Assembly: GCA_963718555.1 (NCBI GenBank)
Contig: OY970361.1
Location: 212,059-276,058 of the forward strand
Length of the DNA: 64,000 nt
DNA from: an uncultured Methanoregulaceae archaeon
GTDB lineage: Archaea; Halobacteriota; Methanomicrobia; Methanomicrobiales; Methanospirillaceae
Direction of reading: 5' to 3'
The notes beneath the pieces were generated by a model, which had not been told where the DNA came from, made no database searches, and saw nothing but the letters and a program-made list of their open reading frames with translations. How positions within the stretch are numbered: the stretch's first letter is position 1; the number at the start of each line of letters is the position of its first letter. Positions 46,889 to 64,000 of the stretch are shown here, piece after piece. A program made the position numbers and the translations under genes.

Positions 46889-47563
46889 TTACAGCAGCTC
46901 GCTCAGCCTGTGCCCGCCGCCTGCCTCGCATCTCTCCCGGTACGTGCACCGGTTGCAGGGTGCGTTGAGCGGGTGCCGGGGCATTTCGCCTGCTTGCATA
47001 GCCCGGACCCGGTGAAGTGCCGCGATCACCTGCCGCCGGTCCCGGGGCTGGACGGTATGGAAACGGGAGACCCCGTCCGGGATGTACTCCACGTGCCCCC
47101 CGGCCACTTCTTTCCCGGTCATCTCCTCGAGGCAGAATACGATGGCGGCAAGCCGCAGCCGGTCTGATGCGTACGTGCCGAACGGCATTGCGCCGGCCGC
47201 CCGGATGATGGAGACTGCACCGTCGGCTGCAACGCGGTCGATCATCCCTGCCATGCCGTGCCGGTCCGATGCCACCCGCACGTCCGTCTGGACGGCAGGT
47301 TTCCATGCTGTTTTATCACACGCCGATATGCAGATCTCCAGGAATTCCCTCATTGCCGGGTCGACTGACGGGCGGACGGCGGTCACCTCGCTCCAGATGA
47401 TCCCTGCATCCAGTGGCCTGCCGAGGTGGTAGGAGAGCTGCTTGCAGACCGCGTAGCGATCGGATTCGGCGACGGGATTACCCTGTTCGTAGTAAAACCG
47501 GACCGGGCAGGCATGCACCCGCACAAGGTCCGAGATCGTTACATACTCCCCGTGGGACGGCAG
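46889..47563 (-). CDS. Solo Cas4/Dna2-like Fe-S protein with degenerate nuclease site (possible CTG start)
   Basis: TISDLVRVHACPVRFYY, GMIDRV, C-terminal CNRCTYRERC; no CRISPR or other cas genes nearby. Confidence 0.75.
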   Translation of the reverse strand: MPSHGEYVTISDLVRVHACPVRFYYEQGNPVAESDRYAVCKQLSYHLGRPLDAGIIWSEVTAVRPSVDPAMREFLEICISACDKTAWKPAVQTDVRVASDRHGMAGMIDRVAADGAVSIIRAAGAMPFGTYASDRLRLAAIVFCLEEMTGKEVAGGHVEYIPDGVSRFHTVQPRDRRQVIAALHRVRAMQAGEMPRHPLNAPCNRCTYRERCEAGGGHRLSELL

Positions 47564-48846: not shown

Positions 48847-49883
48847 TTACGGTTTCGTCCGCTCGGAGATGTCCCTTACCGTGCTCATCACCGCAGACAT
48901 GCCGAAATATTCCGTTATCCTGCTGCTGATCTCGACCGGGATGGTACTCCCGTCTTTTTTCTTCAACTCGGACTCGAACAGCAGATGCCCCCGTGCAAGG
49001 AACTGCTGCAGGGTGTCCGGCTGGAAGATCGCCACGGGGTGCATTGCGAGTTCGTGCAGGTCCATGTGCATGAACTCCTTTTTCGTATACCCGAGGTACC
49101 GGGTCGCGATCACGTTCGTCTCGAAAATCTTGCCATCCACGTCATGGAGGATGATCGCATCGCTCGCCCCATCGAAAAGGGTCCGGTAGCGGAGTTCGGA
49201 CTCGATGAGCTCGTCCTTGGTGCGCTTGCTCTCCGTGACATCCACGATCGAACATACGATGAGTCCCTCGCGGGTGAGGGCCGCCGTGGCCAGCACCCAG
49301 ATCACGGCGCGGTCCTTCTTCCGCAGGCCCACCTCCATGTCCGTGATCTTCTCGTCCTGCCGGATCTTTCTCATGAACCGGCTCTCATGCTCGCTGTCGA
49401 GCCAGAGTTCCGAGAACATCCGGTTCCCGAGCTCGTCCCGGGGATAGCCGAGGATTCCTGCCGACTGCGCATTGAACGTCAGGATCTGCTGGGTGTCGAG
49501 ATCGAAGGTGAGGATGCCGGCCTGCGAGTTCTCGAAGATCTCGCGGTACTTCCTCTCCTGCAGGATCTGGCCGGACAAGGCGGATATCACGACGCCGAGC
49601 GAGACGAAGACATAGAAGAACGCGATGCTCGATGCGTACAGCTGGATATCGGCAGGGCCGTACAGCCCGACGAGCCCGAGGTATATCCACCCGAGGAATA
49701 CCGTGAAGTAAACCGCGTACCGGGGGAAAAATAGGCAATGAGGATGATGGGCAGGATGTAGAAATAGGGGAAAATGCTGAAGTAGCCGTTTTTTAGGGAA
49801 TATATGGAAACAAGGAGGATCCCCACCGTCAGTAATACCGTGATGGAAAGCCAGAGGGTATGTTGTGGCGAAATGGTTCTCAT
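48847..49883 (-). CDS. Membrane-anchored double-PAS protein with no output domain; frameshift near 49725
   Basis: N-terminal TMs (FPYFYILPIILIAYF), then YREIFENSQAGI...DVTESK and YRTLFDGASDAI...VRDISERTKP stop. Confidence 0.78.
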
Positions 49884-50217
49884 ATCACAATCAGTCCTGC
49901 ATGTATATGTCCGGTTGAACATGGTTCCGGGAATTTCTTATATGTTGTCATCGATTCCCGCCTTTTTAGGCCGGGGGATGCCGCCCCTTATGCTCTTCCC
50001 TGGCAGACAGCTGAAACAGGATCAGGCTTTGCCCGGAGGACAGGTCGTTCCCTGTCGTCCGCCTTCCCGAAACGCACAGGGATATATCTCCCGGAGAGCC
50101 GGGAGCGTGAAGGATCGCTCCCACCGGACCGGTTCCCGGCAGCGGGTTCACAACTCCCGTTGTCGGCGATCGTTGCGTTCGCCGCACCATATCCGCCGGC
50201 AGGGATCGTCCCGCTCT

Positions 50218-50863
50218 TCACGTCCTTCTCTCCCTCTTCTCTTTTGCCTGCGCCACAATACCCGCAAGCTCGCGGGCTGCTGCGGTGAGATCGGGCTGAG
50301 ATACGACCGCCGAGATCACGGCTATGCCGTCCGCCCCTGCATCGATCGCCCGGCCGGCATTGCCCGGCCCTATCCCCCCGATGGCGATGACAGGGATCCC
50401 GACCGCTGACCGGATCTCCTGAAGAAGACGAAGGCCGTGCCCGGGCCCGGCGTTGCTCTTGGAGCCCGTGGAGAAGGTGGGACTGAGCGCAACATAGTCA
50501 GCCCCGCTCTGCTCGGCGTCCACTGCTTCCTCCACGGTACTCACGGATACGCCGATGATGAACCCCGCAGGCGCGAGCTGGCGGGCCGTGTCGCACCGCA
50601 TATCCCCCTGACCGAGGTGGACCCCGTCCGCCCCGCAGGCAACCGCCACGTCGAGCCGGTCGTTCACGAGGAAGCTTGCCCCCGCCCTCCGGGTGATCGC
50701 ACGGATCTCCCTGCCCGGTCCTCACCAGTTCGCGGGGGGGACGAACCTTGTCCCGGAGCTGGATCACGCCAGCCCCGCCATCGACTGCCTGTTGTGCGAT
50801 CACAGCATGCCGGAGTCCCTGCGAAAGGGTCTCGTCCGTAATGACGTACAGATCGAGTTTCAT
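50218..50863 (-). CDS. thiE: Thiamine-phosphate synthase; frameshift near 50715
   Basis: LYVITD, IQLRDK | VNDRLDVA...[22 protein letters not shown]. Confidence 0.92.
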
Positions 50864-50876
50864 GGGAGTGTGAGGT

Positions 50877-51678
50877 TTATCCTTTCCGTATCCGGGCCAC
50901 TGCCGCGAGGTCCGCGGGGGTGAGTGAGGCCATCTCGTCGAACAGCGCGGTCCTGAAGCTGGCGGGGCCGCGGGCGCCCGCTGCGGCACGCTCGCCGGCG
51001 ATGCCGAATGCGGCGAGTGCCGCTGCCGATGCCAGTACCATGTCCTTCGATTCCGCAGCAAAGACACCGGTCACGGACGCGGCCATGCAGCCGGTGCCGG
51101 AGATGCTGCCCATCACCGGGTGGCCGTTCCCCACGAGGATCGTACGCTTCCCGTCCGTCACGATGTCCACAGCCCCGCTGATGACCACGGTCATCCCGGT
51201 GGCCCTGGCATAGTCCCGTGCGATCTCCACGGGATTGCCGGAAAGCCCGTGCGAGTCCACGCCCCGCACCTTCCCGTCTGCTCCGGCAAGCACTCCGATC
51301 TCGCCGGCATTGCCCTTGAGGATCGCGATCTCGAGCGAGTCCATGAGTCTCCGGGCGGTCCGTGTCCGGGTACTGCGTGGCGCCGGCTCCCACCGGATCG
51401 AGGATGACCGGGATCTTCCGGTCGTTTGCCATACCCCCGGCCAGCTCCATCGACTCGACCTGCACCCGGTTGAGCGTCCCGATGTTGAGGACCAGCGCGC
51501 CGGCAACCGCGGCCATCTCCTCCGCTTCCTCGGCCGCCTCTGCCATCACCGGCGCACCGCCCGCGCAGAGGGTGATCGTGGCGCAGTCGTTGGCTGTCAC
51601 GTAGTTCGTGATGTGGTGGACGAGCGGGCGTCTCTCACGGACGAGGGAGAACAGCTCTGAGAGGTGTTGTTTCTTCAT
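50877..51678 (-). CDS. thiM: Hydroxyethylthiazole kinase; frameshift near 51370
   Basis: [25 protein letters not shown] | KGNAGEI, SGTGCM. Confidence 0.92.
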
Positions 51679-51807
51679 GGGATCACGCACGGCAGGGGCC
51701 ATCGGCCCCGGTATGATCACTAGTGGGAAATTCTTCCATATAAATCCTGATGGGCGGCCGGCCTCATTCCCTTCACCGGGAAGAAGGTCCGGCGAAGAGG
51801 ACCTGCC

Positions 51808-54443
51808 CTACCGGGTGAGCTCTTCGACCGTGGCAAGGAAGAGGTCCGCTTCCTCGCGCGTGTTGTACGGCCCGAGGCTGAGCCGTACGGTCCCGTCGGG
51901 CAGCCCCAGCCGCTCCATGAGGGGGATGCAGCAGTGGTGGCCCGACCGGACCATGATGTCGGCCGTCTCGTCGAGGCGCTGTGCAACCTCGTGGGGGTGC
52001 AGGCCGTCCACGGTGAAGGAGACTACGCCCACGCGCCGGGCAGGAGTGTCCGGGACATACAGGGTGACGCGGGGGAGCTTCCGGAGGCCGTCGATGATCC
52101 GGGTGGTGAGGGCCTGTTCGTGCCGCCGGACACGGTCCATGCCGATCCGCGTAAGGTAATCGGCCGCTACCCCGAGGCCGATCCCGCCGGCAATGTTGCC
52201 GGTGCCGGCCTCGTACCGCGGGTATCCTTCGGAGAGCGTGTACTCCGTCCCCTTCACCGACTCCACGCTCCCCCCGCCCAGCAGGAGCGGCTCGATCTCC
52301 GGCTCCTTCATCCAGAGCACGCCGGTACCGGTGGGGCCGAGCATCTTGTGGCCGGAGAAGGCACAGAAGTCGCAGCCGAGCTCCGCAACATCGACCGGCA
52401 TGTGGGGGACGGTCTGGGCCATGTCCGCCAGCAGCAGGGCACCGTGGTCGTGGCATATCTTCGCGATCTCCGCAACGGGCGTAATAACGCCGAGGACATT
52501 GGAGGCATGGGTGATCGCGACCAGGCGGGTCCTCTCCGTGATCGCGGACCCGAACGCTTCGAGGTCAAAGGAGTAGTCGTCCCGGATTCCCGCAACATCG
52601 ACCTCCACGCCCCGTCTTCCCAGGCGGTACCAGGGCAGGAGGTTGGAGTGGTGCTCGAGGATGGTCGTGAGTACCCGGTCGCCGGCCTTCCACGGGAAGC
52701 CCTGCGCCACCATGTTGATCGATTCGGTGGTGTTCTTCGTGAAGACCACCAGGCCTTCCTTTGCCCCGATGAAGCCTGCCACTTTCTCGTGGGCGTGCCA
52801 GTAGCGCTGGGACGCGATCTGGGTGAGGCGGTGGACCCCCCGGCCAACGTTTGCCCGGTAGTTGTGCTCGAATTCCACATGGGACCGGATCACCGGTTCC
52901 GGCGAGAGGCTGGTCGCTGCATTGTCGAGGTAGATCACCTCGGCAAGGAGCGGGAAATCCGCACGGATCTCCGCCACGTTGTACTCGTCCCCGGCTGGTT
53001 CCTGCATACCTGTTTCCACTGTTCTTCCTCCCCCGATATCAACTGTTTCATGCTCCTGCCGTACCGGCGTGGCAGCCCGGAGCGTGAAATCCTCGTTCAC
53101 GGCGATGCCTTTTTCCCGGCAGAGTTCCCGCATCTTTTTGGGAAGCGCCTTCCACCGCCAGAGCCCCCAGCGGCAGTAGGCCTCCGGCAGGCCCTTTTTC
53201 TCCGTCCACCGTTCCACGAAGGCGTCCCAGCGCCGGGTATATTCCGGGTGCGATATGCGGATCTGCTCGTACTCGCTCTCGAGCATTGCCGGGCAGAGGA
53301 AGCACCCGATACGCTCGATGCCCTGCTCGTAGAGCGGGTTCATGCCGGTTTTCTGCCACCAGAGATAGAGGAAGACCTCGAGCGCCCGCCAGTTCCGTAT
53401 GGGGGAGACATTGAGCTGGAGCGGGTTGTCGGGGTTCTGGCTCGTCTCCCCGAGGCCGGCCCGGTTCCAGGACTCGTACCACCGGTTCCCCTGGATCGTC
53501 ACGCAGGGGCCGACCTCCGCGAGGTAGAGCTTGAGGGGGCGCAGTTTCTGGAACTTGCAGCACCAGCGGTTGTCCTTGCCCGGCGGGCCGGCCTTCTCGA
53601 CTGCCTGCCAGAAGTCCCCGGCCCCGCTGACAATCTCCACGCCCTGCGACTTCACGAACGCGATGGTCTCGGGGAACTCGAGGCCGGTATCGATGAAGAA
53701 GGCCTTCGTCACACCGGCCTTCCTCGCGAGGTGGAGCACCGCCGTGCTGTCCTTGCCCCCGGAGAACGAGACGTTCGCGGTCGGCCGGTCGTGCATGTGG
53801 TGCCGGATCGTCCGGATCGCGTTCCGTTCCAGGTTCTTGAGGTGGTACCGGTTCCGTTCGATCGCCACGTCCCAGCCGGGTCCGGGCGGGTGCGGGGTTC
53901 AACCGCGATGAGTTCCTTTACCCTGACTGCCCCCTCTTTCACCACTCCCGTGCCGTACCGGGCCCGGTATTTCACGATCACGGTGCCTTCCGGGACGGGA
54001 ACCCTGAGGGAGATCCGTTTCCCGCCGATCCTCCCCTGCTCCTTCCGGGCATCGGTACTGGTGTCGAGATCGAGGACCCCTTTCGTTGCATGGGCAATAA
54101 TGAACGGGAGGGCTTCCGGGGCGATATCGAAAACAAATTTCCTGCCTACCGGGTCGAAGGTGAGCCAGCCGAACCGTTCACCGTGCATGATCACGAGGTC
54201 GGCACGGTCAACGCCCCCGGTCTTGTTCAGGAGGAGGATACGGGCCAGGGGGATATCGCCGAACTGTTCGCGTACGAGCCGCCGGATCAGGGCTGCGTCC
54301 GCAGAAAGCGCAGGGCGGAGGTCGTAGGGCTGGAGGAGATCGATCTTCCTTCCTTCCCTGCCGCACGCACAGCTCTTCGCGATCAGCGGGACGTTGCACG
54401 CATCACACCAGTACAGGACCTTCTTGACCGGCGGTTCACGCAT
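51808..54443 (-). CDS. Fusion of Zn-ribbon/PUA-like region, PAPS-reductase-family domain and SufS-type cysteine desulfurase; frameshift near 53878
   Basis: YWCDACNVP..C.CG; SFSGGKDS, WCCKFQK, RIGCFLCP; then YLDNAATS, EHHSN, FSGHKMLGPTG, RSGHHC with no stop between the latter two domains. Confidence 0.88.
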
Positions 54444-54648
54444 CACACCAGAGAGATGGAACCCTTCAGGAGATAAGAGAAGCGATGGCAGGCCTGCCCG
54501 GCGGGCAGCACCCGGCACAGAGCTACGGGTACTATCATCGGAGAGCGGAATCCCGCGCCAGACTGTTCATCGCCACATGGCCAGTCCCTTTGTGTAACAG
54601 CAAAGTATATACGAGTACAAATCCTGATGCGAAGATGGTGAAAGTACC

Positions 54649-56054: not shown

Positions 56055-56615
56055 TCACAGGCCAAGGTGTTCCAGTACCAGCAGGAACCCGATCATGCAG
56101 GCTTCCAGAATAACGATCACGATCCAGAGGTTGAGGTGGAGAAATTCCGGCACGGTTACCGCAGGGAACGGCCCGCGCACGAGGAACGTGGCCCGGATCT
56201 TCGGGTAGAGTTCCGCGAAGAGACCGGCTCCGATCAGCATCCCGACCATGCCGCCGAAGAGTGCATCGAGCGCCCCGGTCCCGACTGCGCCCGCGACGGT
56301 CCCCGGGCAATAGCCGAGCAGGGCAAAGCCTGCGCCGAATATGAGCCCCCCGACAATATTCGCTCCATAAGTCCCTTCGGCTGCATGGGACCTTACGTAC
56401 CCGTAGTGTTTCAGCAGGTGGAACCCGATCATCCCGACGATCACCGCCGAGAGCATCACTTTCAGGACCGTAAAGTCGGTGAGCAGGAGCTGCCCTTCGA
56501 TCACGTTATAGTCCGTCACGCCGCCTTTCTGCAGGAGAAAACCAAAGCAGATGCCGAAGAGGAGCCCCAGGACGATCTGGAGCCGGGAATCCGTGCGTAT
56601 CGCATCGAGCGTCAT
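56055..56615 (-). CDS. YeeE/YedE-family sulfur transporter half 2
   Basis: GLLFGICFGFLLQKGG, GGLIFGAGFALLGYCPGT. Confidence 0.85.
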   Translation of the reverse strand: MTLDAIRTDSRLQIVLGLLFGICFGFLLQKGGVTDYNVIEGQLLLTDFTVLKVMLSAVIVGMIGFHLLKHYGYVRSHAAEGTYGANIVGGLIFGAGFALLGYCPGTVAGAVGTGALDALFGGMVGMLIGAGLFAELYPKIRATFLVRGPFPAVTVPEFLHLNLWIVIVILEACMIGFLLVLEHLGL

Positions 56616-56620
56616 TCGTT

Positions 56621-57148
56621 TCACGCCCCCCCGATCACGCGGTAGAGGAGCAGGGCGACCGCGATGCCCCCGGCAAAGAAACAGCCGGCCGAGACGATGC
56701 TGGCAAGCGAGAGCTGGATCGACCCGTTGATGCCATGGCCGCTCGTGCAGCCCCCTGCCCACCGGGCGCCGAACCCGAGAAGGATACCGCCGGCGAGCGC
56801 GACGAGGACCCGCAGGAGCGGGTCGGGCCCGAAGGTCTTTTCCCAGAGAGTGGGGACCCAGAGGAGATGGAACTGTCCGGACAGGAGCACGGAGATATAT
56901 GCCCCGATTATCACCCCCGGAATGATCATCAGGGCCCAGTCGATCCGTGGTACGATCTCCTGGTAATATTCCATGGCGTTCACTTTTTTCGCGTTGAGGG
57001 CTTTCCCGATCAGCCCGCGGGCCTTGACAAATGCCAATGAACACCCTATCGGGCGGTCGGAGAGCAGGAAAGCAAGACAGGACAGTACACCTATTCCGGC
57101 ACCGGCCAGGTATGGCGACCATGTCGCCTGTGTGAGGAGTTCAAACAT
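56621..57148 (-). CDS. YeeE/YedE-family sulfur transporter half 1
   Basis: WSPYLAG, GFGARWAGGCTSGHG. Confidence 0.87.
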   Translation of the reverse strand: MFELLTQATWSPYLAGAGIGVLSCLAFLLSDRPIGCSLAFVKARGLIGKALNAKKVNAMEYYQEIVPRIDWALMIIPGVIIGAYISVLLSGQFHLLWVPTLWEKTFGPDPLLRVLVALAGGILLGFGARWAGGCTSGHGINGSIQLSLASIVSAGCFFAGGIAVALLLYRVIGGA

Positions 57149-60202: not shown

Positions 60203-61315
60203 TCAGACCGGCAGCGGCATCCCCGATGCCTCGAGTTTTTCCTCGATCTCCCGGATTGTTGCCAGCTTCGCCCGGGTAGAGGGCCCGCACGGGACCGCGG
60301 TGCAGCCGGATGCTTTTGATATAGACTCGGCGAACGTCCCGATCTCCCGGGCAATCCTTACGGTCTCTTCCTTGTCAAACCCGATCAGTGGACGGTGGAT
60401 CGGCACATCGGAAGCGGCATCGGTCAGGACAGCCAGGTTGTCAAGGGTCTGGCTTGCCACCTGCCCGAGGGACTCCCCGGTAACTATCCCCTTTGCCCCG
60501 GCCTGCAGTGCATATGCAGTTGCCACGCGGTACATCCGGCGCTTGCAGAAGATGCAGGTGTATTTCTCGAGATGACGGCGGACCAGTTCCTGTCGTGCCG
60601 CCGCCAGGTAGGGGTCCTTTATCACCACCAGCCTGATACCGGGCTGGTACCTGGCAAGGACTTCCACCACCCGCTCTGCCCGGGCGATGGTCGTCTCGTC
60701 AAGAAAGGTATCGAGCGCGACAAAGAGCGGGACAATCCGGCAGCCCCGCTTCATCATCATCCATGCGGCGACCGGGGAGTCAATGCCCCCGGATACGAGG
60801 GCTACCAGCGTTCCCTCAACGCCGAGCGGGAGTCCCCCGGCGGCTTTTGTCACGGCGTCGTACAGATACGCCTCGCTCGCCCGGATCTCCACATGGATCT
60901 CCTTGTCGGGATTGGCGAGGTTCACCTTGAGGTGGGGGAACTCGTGTCGCAGGAGGGTGCCGTACTCGATCGCCTTGTCATTGGACGTAAATGCGTGTTT
61001 GCCGACCCGCTTCATCCTGATCGCAAAGCTCTTTGCCTTCTCAATCCCGTGCCGGCGGCAATAATCGGGAAGGAAAGACCCGATCTCATCGAGCCGGATG
61101 TGTTCGACTTCCGAGAACGAGACGATCCCGAAGATGTTTTTCAGCAGTACGGGCTTCACATCCCCGTCAAGCCAGATCCTGCCCCGCTCGTTCCGGACAT
61201 GGACCCCGGGCATCACCTCGCGGATGTTGGCGATCAGGGTATTCTCCCACTGCCGGCGCACCGGGTCGGATTTTAAGAATATTTCAGAGTATCGTACAAG
61301 CCACTGGTTCTTCAT
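60203..61315 (-). CDS. thiI: tRNA 4-thiouridine synthase ThiI (Fe-S type, no rhodanese)
   Basis: RYSEIFLKS, THUMP, SGGIDS PP-loop, CIFC, GESLGQVASQT, third Cys in SGCTAVP. Confidence 0.93.
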   Translation of the reverse strand: MKNQWLVRYSEIFLKSDPVRRQWENTLIANIREVMPGVHVRNERGRIWLDGDVKPVLLKNIFGIVSFSEVEHIRLDEIGSFLPDYCRRHGIEKAKSFAIRMKRVGKHAFTSNDKAIEYGTLLRHEFPHLKVNLANPDKEIHVEIRASEAYLYDAVTKAAGGLPLGVEGTLVALVSGGIDSPVAAWMMMKRGCRIVPLFVALDTFLDETTIARAERVVEVLARYQPGIRLVVIKDPYLAAARQELVRRHLEKYTCIFCKRRMYRVATAYALQAGAKGIVTGESLGQVASQTLDNLAVLTDAASDVPIHRPLIGFDKEETVRIAREIGTFAESISKASGCTAVPCGPSTRAKLATIREIEEKLEASGMPLPV

Positions 61316-61322
61316 CACTGGT

Positions 61323-61826
61323 TCACCGCACCCCGCACGTGTGTTCCGCATCCCCTTCCTTGAACGGGTGGTGGCAGTACGGGCACATGAAATCGCATTC
61401 TGTCCCTTCATACGGGCAGATGGTCATCGAGAGATCGGCAAGCGGATGACCCTTTCCCCGTATCTCGAACTCCTTGTACCAGCCGAACGGGGCACGTTTC
61501 ACTTCAACGTCTTCATCAGTGAGCGCAGATTCCAGGCCTTTGAGAATCTCCAGTGCAACCGACGGGGAGCCGAGCGTACTGGTCAGGTGGGCGTAGGGAT
61601 AGATCAGCACCCGGTTTACATGGAGCATGCCAAGCCGTTTCCGGACTCCCGCTGTCGCACTCCGTATTACCTGAATCGGGTCTTTCTCGTCCAGTTTCTC
61701 AACACAGCAGAAGAGGACTACGCACTCCTCCATCCGGTCCTCCCGGATTTCCGCAGGTTCTGCCATCTTGGTCTTCTTAGTTGCATGGTACCACATGCGA
61801 TCGGCATGAATGGAGAGGATCCTCAT
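61323..61826 (-). CDS. Free-standing archaeal ThrRS editing domain (Ser-tRNA(Thr) hydrolase)
   Basis: [31 protein letters not shown]; extra Cys/His tail. Confidence 0.88.
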
Positions 61827-63297
61827 GGGTTCGTCCTCCCGACCAGCACGCTGATTGCATCCACGGTAATGAGCCCGATCACGTGCTGGTCCTCGTCGAC
61901 CACCGGGAGTGCCGAGATCGCGTGCTCCTCCATCTTCCTGGCCGCTTCCTCGATCGGCTCACCGGGCGTCGCGGTCACCACATCGCGGGACATGATCTCG
62001 TCCAGCCAGAGGAAGTTGGAGGCCACCGCTTTTGCGATATCCCACGACGTGACGATCCCCACGAGCTGCCCCCGCCGGAGAGTACCGGCAGGTGGTTGAC
62101 GCCGGTGTTGATCATCCGCCGGGCAGTCACGGCGATGGTCGTTCCCTCCTCGATCGTCTGCACGTCCCGGACCATGACATCGCCGACTACCGTGTGGGAG
62201 AGGAACTTTCCCACGAGGTAGTTGATCTGGCCGGACTCCAGCAGGAACGCGTCGTGGCCGTAGTTGGATCGGATCTCGCAATAGTGTACCTCTATCTCGT
62301 TCGCTGTCAGGGCCGAGACGATCTCCTGCGACTGGTAGGGAGGGTAGAGCCAGTCGGATGAGACCGAGATGACAAGGAATGCCGCTTTTACCCCGGCAAG
62401 GCCGGTGCTCAGCGAACCGTCCTTTGTCAGGTCGAAGTAGTCGATCGCCTTGGTGATATACAGGTATGAGTTTGCATCGAACCGCTTCGTGAACATATCG
62501 CCCTGGTGATGGAGGTAGCTCTCGATCCTGAAGTCCGTTGAGAAGTCAAAACCTATCCGGTCCTTGCCCTGCAGGGCCCGTCCGAACTTCTCGTGCATCG
62601 ACTCGTTCGAGAGGTAGGTGATATGGCCCACCATCCGTGCAAGTGCCAGCCCGTGGGTGGGGAGCGCCTTCCCGTAGTAGTCACCGTTGTTCCAGTGCGG
62701 ATCGGAGAGGATCGCCTTCCTGCCTACCTCGTTGAACGCGATCTGCTGGGGGGTCGAGTAGCCGGTTGACGCAATTACGACCGCCTTCCTCATCAGGTCG
62801 GGGTAAGTGACCGCCCACTGCAGCACCTGCATCCCCCCCATGGAGCCTCCCGCCACTGTATACAGCTGGCCGATGCCAAGGTGATCGATGAGGAGTTTCT
62901 GGGCGTTCACCATATCCCGGATCGTGATGACCGGGAACTTTGCTCCATAGGGTTTTCCCGTATCCGGGTTTACCGAGGACGGGCCGGTCGAGCCCTTGCA
63001 CCCACCGGGGATGTTTGCGCAGATCACAAAATAGCGATCGGTGTCGAACGCCTTGCCGGGGCCGATAACCGCATCCCACCAGCCGGGTTTCGTGTCGCCT
63101 TCGTGGAATCCCGCAACGTGGGCATCGCCCGAAAGAGCGTGGCAGACAAGGATGGCGTTGCTCTTATCCTTATTCAGCCTGCCGTACGTCTCGTAGGCAA
63201 GGGTAAGGGAAGGAAGAGTTTCCCCGCTTTCCAGTACGAGCGGGGATGGATGGCGATAGTATTGTGTTGTCACAAGTCCTGCAGATCCCTTGATCAT
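61823..63297 (-). CDS. metX: Homoserine O-acetyltransferase with C-terminal CBS pair; frameshift near 62072
   Basis: [27 protein letters not shown]; CBS domains split across two frames. Confidence 0.92.
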
Positions 63298-63381
63298 TTA
63301 CACACCCCGTGCCGGACCGGGTAAGTTCTGCAACGCTATCCCGGATGTCCTCAGACAAGAGGGCCCGGAAAGGAGTGCGCT

Positions 63382-64000
63382 TCACGGTGCCGCTTCCAGG
63401 GCCTGCCTGAGATCGGCGATGATGTCCTCGATGTCTTCAGTCCCTACCGAGAGCCGGACTGCATCCGGGGTGACACCGGTCTTCTTCTGCTCCTCCGGGG
63501 TGAGCTGCTGGTGGGTGGTGGATGCCGGGTGGATGACGAGGCTCTTTGAGTCCCCGATATTGGCGAGGTTGCTGAAGAGTTTGAGGTGGTCGATGAACTT
63601 TCTCGATGCCACTTCCCCGCCTTTGATCCCGACCCCTACCAAAGGTCCGTATCCACCGGTGAGGTACTTTTTCGTGAGCTCGTGGTTCGGGTTATCGGGG
63701 AGCCCCGGGTAGTTCACCCAGGCAACCTTCGGGTGCGACTTGAGGAACTCAGCGACAGCCAGGGCATTCTCCGAGTGGCGGGGGACCCGAAGGTGGAGCG
63801 TTTCAAGGCCGATGAGGAAGAGCCAGGCATTGAACGGGCTGAGCACTGCCCCGGTATCCCTCATGAGGGAGACACGGATCTTAAAGACAAAAGCAACGTT
63901 CCCATGGCCCGGGAAGTTCTTGAACGTGTCCCAGTACTTCAGGCCGTGGTAGCTCGGGTCCGGCTCGGTGAACTCGGGGAACTTGCCGTTGTCCCAGGCA
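63382..64000 (-). CDS. metY: O-acetylhomoserine sulfhydrylase (5' part outside window)
   Basis: [47 protein letters not shown]. Confidence 0.93.

What the first reader, a model, noticed from the sequence alone, without database searches (positions are those of the whole stretch)
51808..54443. PAPS-reductase-family/cysteine desulfurase fusion with an N-terminal Zn-ribbon/PUA-like region: candidate self-contained nucleic-acid sulfur-insertion enzyme
Seen: after restoring one C near 53878, a single ~880-aa protein contains a Cys4 ribbon and a PUA-like region, then a PP-loop domain (SFSGGKDS) with CC and CxxC Fe-S ligands, then a complete SufS-type desulfurase (PLP Lys in SGHK, catalytic RSGHHC). 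The junction between the last two domains is in frame without any correction. The C-terminal ECG(L/I)H motif of true APS/PAPS reductases is absent. Known: the same pair of activities (DndA desulfurase + DndC PAPS-reductase-family Fe-S protein) drives DNA phosphorothioation, PP-loop Fe-S enzymes thiolate tRNA, and PUA domains bind RNA. Inference: the enzyme may adenylate and thiolate an RNA base or backbone phosphate (or a cofactor) using its own persulfide source, rather than reduce sulfate. No dndBDE/pbe genes are present here.
Basis: partly seen in the sequence, partly recalled or inferred. Interest (0 to 1): 0.75.

Follow-up and report, generated by a model that had tools for sequence, protein, structure and literature searches.

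The report
Archaeal RNA sulfur-inserter with tethered desulfurase
This methanogen gene joins a cysteine-splitting sulfur-donor enzyme to a widespread archaeal ATP-dependent, predicted iron-sulfur protein with an RNA-binding-type module; it likely puts sulfur into RNA rather than reducing sulfate as usually annotated, though the fusion is common in this order, optional, and already noted in print.

Summary
Observation confirmed. The minus-strand gene (54443-51808) is an 878-aa fusion; its one-base break is very likely an assembly error (four consecutive genes broken, dN/dS 0.08-0.18, relatives intact). The N-terminal module is an archaeal PRK13795-type protein: Zn ribbon, TGT-C2-like domain, shortened PUA, intact PP-loop, three invariant Cys, no ECG(L/I)H (0 of 261). 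It occurs in 129 of 131 genomes of the order, about 90 fused to SufS, while Sat (0 of 41), CysD (2 of 41) and full APS kinase (2 of 41) are nearly absent, so sulfate reduction lacks a substrate. Best reading: ATP- and [4Fe-4S]-dependent sulfur insertion into tRNA/rRNA, probably the backbone, fed by the tethered SufS (inferred, untested). 'Self-contained' is overstated: SufS joined once, was lost again in several lineages, often sits beside fdhD, and a conserved in-frame start codon (23 of 28 loci) may yield free SufS. The fusion is in print as a putative APS/PAPS reductase (PMC6286981, PMC11237513), and this scan found it before on other DNA (e1-6505124). I recall, but could not retrieve, a report of archaeal RNA phosphorothioates that may already cover the family.

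The parts
53878..54443 (-). 5' piece of the gene (codons 1-189): Zn ribbon, TGT-C2-like and PUA-derived domains
   Evidence: PRK13795-1 E 3e-23; 84% identical to intact relative
54363..54407 (-). Cys4 zinc-ribbon motif CxxC-x8-CxC (C13, C16, C25, C27); zinc binding inferred
   Evidence: (124-128 of 131 rows keep each Cys)
54084..54290 (-). pre-PUA domain, aligned to the TGT_C2 patch-forming domain of archaeal tRNA-guanine transglycosylase in family members (residues 52-120)
   Evidence: (weak TGT_C2 hits in P0168, P0184, below cut-off)
53913..54080 (-). shortened, divergent PUA domain (residues 122-177) with a conserved basic R(I/L)GGK motif
   Evidence: lead only, score 0.79
53878..53880 (-). 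homopolymer run one base shorter than in relatives; frameshift, very likely an assembly error
   Evidence: not spanned by reads
53287..53775 (-). PAPS-reductase-family PP-loop domain: SFSGGKDS, RWCC, CxxC; three invariant Cys (C295, C381, C384) predicted to hold a [4Fe-4S] cluster
53080..53286 (-). helical C-terminal cap of the module with conserved GxWRW motif; no ECG(L/I)H
52960..53079 (-). variable linker (dN/dS 0.6; pLDDT under 50)
53005..53019 (-). candidate internal start codons for a free SufS (GTG at 53019, ATG at 53007) behind a purine-rich GGAGG-containing stretch; use not shown
51808..52959 (-). group II (SufS-like) cysteine desulfurase: PLP Lys in SGHK (52356-52345), catalytic Cys motif RSGHHC (51948-51931)
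   Evidence: (TIGR01979 403 bits, below cut-off 475)

Best explanation
The protein is likely an ATP- and [4Fe-4S]-dependent enzyme that inserts sulfur into tRNA or rRNA, with a tethered SufS predicted to supply that sulfur from cysteine. Steps: (1) shown by sequence and model: Zn ribbon + TGT-C2-like + PUA-derived domains sit on a PP-loop domain; inferred: they bind a structured RNA. (2) Inferred from the intact SGGKDS loop: ATP adenylates the target oxygen, releasing pyrophosphate. (3) Inferred: three invariant Cys hold a [4Fe-4S] cluster whose fourth iron can take sulfide (as in TtuA/LarE). (4) Inferred: SufS forms a persulfide from cysteine and loads that iron (and may also help build the cluster); sulfide displaces AMP. 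The most likely target is a backbone phosphate (phosphorothioate), since the nearest sulfur-inserting relatives (DndC, SspD, BrxP) do that on DNA and the genome already encodes ThiI and NcsA-like base thiolases; a base target is not excluded. SufS is an accessory, lineage-specific addition.
For: PUA-derived region and TGT_C2 position; residues 37-194 of the model align with Nip7, Ta PUA protein, RsmF, RsmE, eIF2D and MCT-1 (Z 5.0-5.8); paralog A has a canonical PUA (E 1e-17). SGG and S of the PP-loop, R293, C295, C381, C384 invariant in 131 of 131 rows, C296 replaced in 5 of 131; DndC reads RWCT at the same place. No ECG(L/I)H in 261. Housekeeping-like distribution: 129 of 131 genomes against Sat 0 of 41, CysD 2 of 41, full APS kinase 2 of 41. 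Desulfurase motifs intact and dN/dS 0.11. Precedent: DndC is a three-Cys [4Fe-4S] PP-loop enzyme fed by DndA (PMC10853773, passages); SufS+BrxP+BrxC suffice for DNA phosphorothioation (PMC12914056, passages); LarE takes sulfane sulfur from IscS onto a [4Fe-5S] cluster (PMC9283937, abstract). ThiI in the window and NcsA-like genes elsewhere.
Against: No substrate, RNA binding or sulfur transfer has been measured. The direct PUA profile match is negligible (0.5%) and fold Z-scores are in the range common for chance arrangements (note). Closest solved folds are APS/PAPS reductases (Z 14-16) ahead of TtuA/NcsA (Z about 10). M. jannaschii homologues were reported to reduce APS/PAPS in vitro (Lee 2011, Cho 2013, seen only as cited in PMC6286981 and PMC10322725). 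A tree test did not reject grouping clade B with CysH (p-AU 0.37) and DndC's place is unstable. Unfused forms are common and SufS was lost at least once inside the fused clade. The full-length model gives no confident domain arrangement (pTM 0.53).
Confidence: 0.55

Rival explanations
1. The N-terminal module is the RNA sulfur-inserting enzyme, but the SufS is a passenger or general donor: a sufS from a molybdopterin/formate-dehydrogenase sulfur-relay cluster landed downstream, the stop codon was lost, and the domain mainly serves FdhD or cluster assembly, partly as a free protein from an internal start.
For: fdhD lies next to 9 of 17 fused loci read with flanks and directly behind 3 of 6 stand-alone sufS paralogs; those paralogs sit with moaE, moeB-like, iscS/iscU genes. 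Split, adjacent gene pairs exist (L070, L086). ATG/GTG/TTG at position -20 in 23 of 28 same-genus loci against 4.6% background, TTG being 2% of Leu codons. One origin, later losses.
Against: In-frame fusion kept in 71 of 71 long-ORF loci read across six families (loci were picked for long frames) and about 90 of 131 genomes. fdhD is absent beside all 6 same-genus loci read, and its orientation varies. One unfused clade-B2 gene has a different, IscS-type desulfurase beside it (L083). The two conserved Met may be a protein motif, and the signal fades outside the genus.
Confidence: 0.2
2. It is an assimilatory APS/PAPS reductase, as annotated, with SufS assembling its cluster.
For: Pfam PF01507; best folds are APS/PAPS reductases; CC/CxxC pattern as in APS reductase; reported in vitro activity of M. 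jannaschii homologues (cited in PMC6286981, PMC10322725; originals not read).
Against: No catalytic ECG(L/I)H, whereas 4 of the 5 annotated bacterial CysH fetched end in ECG(I/L/F)H and the fifth in ECGLW. Scores far under APS/PAPS reductase cut-offs (52 vs 235 bits TIGR02055; 58 vs 154 PRK02090). No APS source in 39 of 41 genomes. PMC6286981 itself says the source of APS/PAPS is unclear; PMC10322725 found sulfate growth relies on an unrelated PAPS reductase and calls the role of these homologues open.
Confidence: 0.1
3. It adenylates and thiolates a small molecule or cofactor (LarE-like), or is an FAD synthetase-type adenylyltransferase.
For: Fold similarity to FAD synthases (Z 12-13.6) and LarE (Z 9.5); neighbours in this genus are thiM-thiE.
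Against: A PUA-type module would be unexplained; the unfused subclade always sits before grpE-dnaK (22 of 22), not with cofactor genes; a RibL-like cytidylyltransferase-family gene exists elsewhere (the RibL label is recalled, NCBIfam gave only the family).
Confidence: 0.1
4. It is a one-chain DndA+DndC that phosphorothioates DNA.
For: Same two activities; shared SGGKDS and RWC motifs with DndC.
Against: No dndD over cut-off in the genome; DndC model not matched (absent lists for clade B; 48 vs 290 bits for paralog A); true dndC genes occur separately in some relatives; near-universal single-copy distribution is unlike defence islands; DNA systems need a partner P-loop ATPase (PMC12914056, passages).
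Confidence: 0.04

Closest known systems
Archaeal PRK13795 family (NCBIfam NF010366-NF010369), 'putative APS/PAPS reductases' of methanogens
   Same: Whole 455-aa module aligns (E 1.7e-115 to NF010366); Zn ribbon, pre-PUA, PUA slot, PP-loop, Cys motifs, WRW cap.
   Different: PUA shortened and divergent; C-terminal 4Fe-4S ferredoxin tail of orthologues outside the order is missing and SufS stands there instead; scores below the full-length cut-off.
CysH-SufS fusion of Methanomicrobiales (cluster 536 in PMC11237513; C-terminal desulfurase forms in PMC6286981)
   Same: This is that architecture.
   Different: Those passages file it under sulfate assimilation; they do not mention PUA (0 occurrences) or RNA.
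DndC/DndA, SspD/SspA, BrxP/SufS DNA phosphorothioation enzymes
   Same: PAPS-reductase-family PP-loop enzyme with SGGKDS and RWC, paired with a cysteine desulfurase.
   Different: No DndD-type ATPase partner found; RNA-binding-type N-terminus; chromosomal, near-universal; below DndC model.
[4Fe-4S] PP-loop sulfur insertases TtuA, NcsA, TtcA, LarE
   Same: PP-loop, three fixed Cys, Zn-binding extension; desulfurase can supply sulfur (LarE).
   Different: Different family (PF01171 vs PF01507); Z about 10; the genome has its own NcsA-like and ThiI genes.
Archaeal rRNA/tRNA phosphorothioate-forming enzymes (recalled 2025-26 report; not retrieved)
   Same: From recall only: an archaeal enzyme family placing sulfur on RNA backbones; this family fits that description.
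   Different: Could not check the paper, its enzyme names or whether Methanomicrobiales or SufS fusions are covered (searches did not find it).

Membership tests
PRK13795-type archaeal family | Zn ribbon + pre-PUA + PUA + PAPS_reduct domain aligning over the N-terminal 450 aa | tested here: met
PRK13795-type archaeal family | Score over the curated full-length cut-off and C-terminal 4Fe-4S tail | tested here: not met
   387 vs 745 bits; no Fer4 domain
PUA domain (PF01472) | Direct Pfam match | tested here: not met
PUA domain (PF01472) | Homology and fold by indirect tests | tested here: met
   transitive hhalign 92.6% and 97.6%; six PUA-bearing structures at Z 5.0-5.8
PUA domain (PF01472) | Binds RNA | not testable with these tools
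   needs binding assay
Assimilatory APS/PAPS reductase (CysH) | C-terminal catalytic ECG(L/I)H (motif recalled; seen in fetched CysH) | tested here: not met
   0 of 261
Assimilatory APS/PAPS reductase (CysH) | Upstream sulfate activation (Sat or CysD) in the genome | tested here: not met
   not found in G000 (89.7% complete); Sat 0 of 41, CysD 2 of 41
Assimilatory APS/PAPS reductase (CysH) | Phylogenetic placement inside CysH | tested here: inconclusive
   CysH+CysD form their own group (97) but a forced B+CysH clade is not rejected (p-AU 0.37)
DndC (TIGR03183) / Dnd system | Model score over cut-off | tested here: not met
   positive control L075 597 vs 290 bits
DndC (TIGR03183) / Dnd system | dndD and dndE partners | tested here: inconclusive
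   dndD not over cut-off (no control genome over cut-off); DndE search rang nowhere; none in the neighbourhoods read
Group II cysteine desulfurase (SufS-like) | PLP-Lys motif and RxGxHC catalytic motif | tested here: met
Group II cysteine desulfurase (SufS-like) | TIGR01979 cut-off | tested here: not met
   403 vs 475 bits; stand-alone paralog also below, 436
[4Fe-5S]-type sulfur insertases (TtuA/NcsA/LarE mode) | Intact PP-loop and three invariant cluster Cys | tested here: met
[4Fe-5S]-type sulfur insertases (TtuA/NcsA/LarE mode) | Cluster with an open iron site and sulfur transfer | not testable with these tools
   C296 is kept in 126 of 131 rows and could be a fourth ligand
Archaeal RNA phosphorothioate writers (recalled) | Orthology to the characterised enzymes | not testable with these tools
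   paper not retrieved

The most novel reading that the evidence does not exclude
A single polypeptide that takes sulfur from free cysteine and writes a phosphorothioate into the backbone of archaeal tRNA or rRNA: an RNA-directed DndA-DndC in one chain. It would name the sulfur donor for the whole family, overturn the APS/PAPS-reductase label of a gene present in nearly all Methanomicrobiales, and offer a one-protein enzyme for RNA backbone thiolation; the same mRNA may also make free SufS from an internal start.
Probability: 0.35. Interest if true: 0.75.

Novelty: new variant of a known kind. Interest (0 to 1): 0.5.

Why it matters
Methanogens carry one or two of these 'APS/PAPS reductases' without the means to make APS, a puzzle stated in print. 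The fusion works as a Rosetta stone: it ties the family to cysteine-derived sulfur and, with the PUA-type module, to RNA. Natural variation (fused, split, SufS lost, paralog A lost here) gives ready controls, and one purified protein plus ATP, cysteine and RNA tests the idea. The window's copy itself is an ordinary member.

Tried and rejected
Reads: 4 runs laid on 53000-54500; no contig spans the break; no RNA holder listed. Complex prediction between module and SufS was not available, so contact between the domains is untested; the full-length model (17 sequences, pTM 0.53) says nothing on active-site distance and no coordinates were returned. Direct Pfam and direct profile tests for PUA failed. 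ESM Atlas gave one PUA hit at 0.79, a lead only. APS kinase search: 40 of 41 genomes ring, but only 2 are strong full-length hits and 2 weaker; the rest are P-loop fragments. DndE search had no positive control. SufE not found in G000; two IscU-like and two small sulfite-reductase-like genes are present. TIGR01527 was the wrong model for FAD synthase. Phylum search: 68 of 111 genomes had no match at 1e-60, groups unnamed, so not interpreted. Tree had one row extracted from the wrong strand (L085) and was a quick tree; redone (2 of 21 B1 loci missed by the extraction). Sigma-70 promoter scan is not suited to archaea. One region (L169) was mis-specified and unused. Ten literature searches found no paper assigning RNA modification to this family; the library lacks most subscription journals. 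Rejected: true pseudogene; programmed frameshift (relatives have none); DNA defence system.

Full report
Observation. The gene is on the minus strand from ATG 54443 to the stop at 51808 and is read in two frames. The 3' frame carries PAPS_reduct (E 2.6e-34) and Aminotran_5 (E 9e-126) without interruption; both pieces match the archaeal PRK13795 models. Named best hits are Methanoregula and other Methanomicrobiales proteins.

The break. The closest relative (L002, genome G019) has an intact 878-codon gene one base longer, 84-85% identical on both sides; dN/dS is 0.175 before the break, 0.083 in the PP-loop module, 0.111 in SufS and 0.6 in the linker. The next three genes (thiM, thiE, a PAS gene) are each broken once as well. 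Short-read contigs did not span the site. An assembly error is therefore inferred, not observed.

Anatomy. AlphaFold2 on the 463-residue module with 131 sequences gave pLDDT 96.4, pTM 0.94. The catalytic domain is closest to APS/PAPS reductases (Z 14-16), then CysD and FAD synthases (12-13.7), then NcsA/TtuA/LarE (about 10). Residues 37-194 align with Nip7, a Thermoplasma PUA protein, RsmF, RsmE, eIF2D and MCT-1 at Z 5.0-5.8, middling scores but all PUA-bearing (that each carries PUA is partly recalled). Pfam finds no PUA here, but many of the 58 representatives scanned have it at the matching place, two also with a weak TGT_C2 hit. These map to residues 122-177 and 52-120; clade B matches an intermediate group at 92.6%, which matches canonical PUA at 97.6%, while the direct match is 0.5%. 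So the domain is PUA-derived and eroded; RNA binding is inferred. In 131 aligned rows C295, C381 and C384 are invariant, C296 is replaced in 5, the PP-loop is intact, and ECG(L/I)H is absent from 261 stored homologues. DndC genes from two relatives show SGGKDS and RWCT.

Distribution. 129 of 131 genomes of the order carry this module (clade B); by hand count 90 have it in an open frame of at least 849 residues. I read the linker in 71 loci chosen for long frames and all were in frame with SufS (67, 4). A second paralog (clade A, about 470 aa, canonical PUA) is in most relatives but is reduced to a short relic between its usual neighbours in this genome. Outside the order, orthologues in three other families are about 620-740 aa and representatives of that size mostly end in a ferredoxin domain; none reached fusion length. 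Among 14 named controls, M. jannaschii and M. acetivorans ring at 1e-40. Sat was found in 0 of 41 genomes (5 of 14 controls ring), CysD in 2 of 41, a strong full-length APS kinase in the same 2.

History of the fusion. In a quick tree of 56 rows the SufS-associated forms make one clade of 27 (support 100) nested among unfused forms; four rows without SufS sit inside the fused group. All 22 loci of the older unfused type lie before grpE-dnaK. Two loci have module and sufS as separate adjacent genes, two more are broken between or within them. The fused SufS domains group together (97) next to stand-alone group II paralogs, which lie with fdhD, moaE, moeB-like and iscS/iscU genes; fdhD flanks 9 of 17 fused loci and 3 of 6 stand-alone ones. 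Seven genomes hold both types. Thus SufS is an accessory acquired once.

Internal start. In 28 same-genus loci, 23 have ATG, GTG or TTG 20 codons before the SufS start motif and 20 have ATG at -16, against 4.6% background; two of three Leu at -20 are TTG, a codon used for 2% of Leu; upstream bases are purine-rich. The loci are related and a protein motif could explain the Met, so this is a lead (my estimate about even odds).

Literature. PMC6286981 (passages and section 12, part 1) lists methanogen homologues with a C-terminal desulfurase as putative APS/PAPS reductases and says the APS/PAPS source is unclear. PMC11237513 (passages) reports the CysH-SufS fusion as exclusive to Methanomicrobiales. 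PMC10322725 (passages) shows sulfate growth uses an unrelated enzyme and leaves these homologues open. PMC12914056, PMC10853773 and PMC12839542 (passages) describe PAPS-reductase-domain enzymes plus desulfurases in DNA phosphorothioation. PMC9283937 (abstract) gives the [4Fe-5S] precedent. PMC8351635 (passages) shows Methanococcales often lack SufS. Lee 2011 and Cho 2013 were not read. No supplements were opened; those of PMC6286981 and PMC11237513 may list members. I recall a recent report of phosphorothioates in archaeal tRNA/rRNA made by a dedicated enzyme family; six searches did not find it, so it is recall only, and my prior for a backbone target leans on it. This scan noted the same fusion and an unfused member on other DNA, after I had stated my reading.

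Mechanism and odds. RNA sulfur insertion fed by the tethered SufS 0.55 (backbone more likely than base); same enzyme with SufS as passenger or general donor 0.2; APS/PAPS reductase 0.1; cofactor chemistry 0.1; DNA phosphorothioation 0.04. Shown: architecture, motifs, conservation, distribution, missing sulfate activation. Inferred: cluster, adenylation, RNA target, sulfur hand-over. Against: reported reductase activity of distant homologues, unresolved deep tree (p-AU 0.37), eroded PUA, no evidence on domain contact.

Verdict. A real, conserved fusion, known as an architecture but probably mis-annotated; a new variant of the PP-loop/desulfurase sulfur-insertion theme. Interest 0.5.

Noticed in passing
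G000:C1:1843465-1843737 (outside the window): Paralog A (canonical PUA form) is deleted down to a short relic still reading the CxxC region, between its usual flanking genes; this genome keeps only the SufS-fused paralog.
   Followed up: partly
window 48850-51680: thiM, thiE and a PAS-domain membrane gene each carry one frameshift relative to G019, pointing to an indel-rich stretch of assembly.
   Followed up: yes
window 53005-53019 (-): Conserved in-frame start codons in the linker; possible free SufS from the same mRNA.
   Followed up: partly
window 56055-57148 (-), 60203-61411 (-), 61975-63864 (-): Sulfur-related genes nearby: two Sulf_transp (YeeE-type) membrane genes and ThiI, and ORFs that look like homoserine acetyltransferase and O-acetylhomoserine sulfhydrylase (from sequence only).
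   Followed up: no
L051-L053, L055, L080, L085, L136-L151: The unfused clade-B gene stands directly before grpE-dnaK in 22 of 22 loci, a possible heat-stress link.
   Followed up: partly
L083 2213-4992: An unfused clade-B2 gene is divergently adjacent to an IscS-type (group I) desulfurase, a second association with a desulfurase.
   Followed up: partly
L020 (G035:C22): The fusion's 5' part is replaced in frame by what reads like a type I restriction N-terminal domain; insertion or mis-assembly.
   Followed up: no
L075, L076, L077, L078: Some relatives carry separate dndC genes or 740-790-aa BrxP/SspD-like PAPS-domain genes, several with desulfurases nearby.
   Followed up: partly
window 46889-47524 (-): Cas4-like PD-(D/E)XK nuclease gene (weak Pfam hits) kept near the fusion in several same-genus genomes.
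   Followed up: no
P0249: A family member (733 aa) ends in an EF-1A C-terminal-like domain, another translation-linked fusion if real.
   Followed up: no
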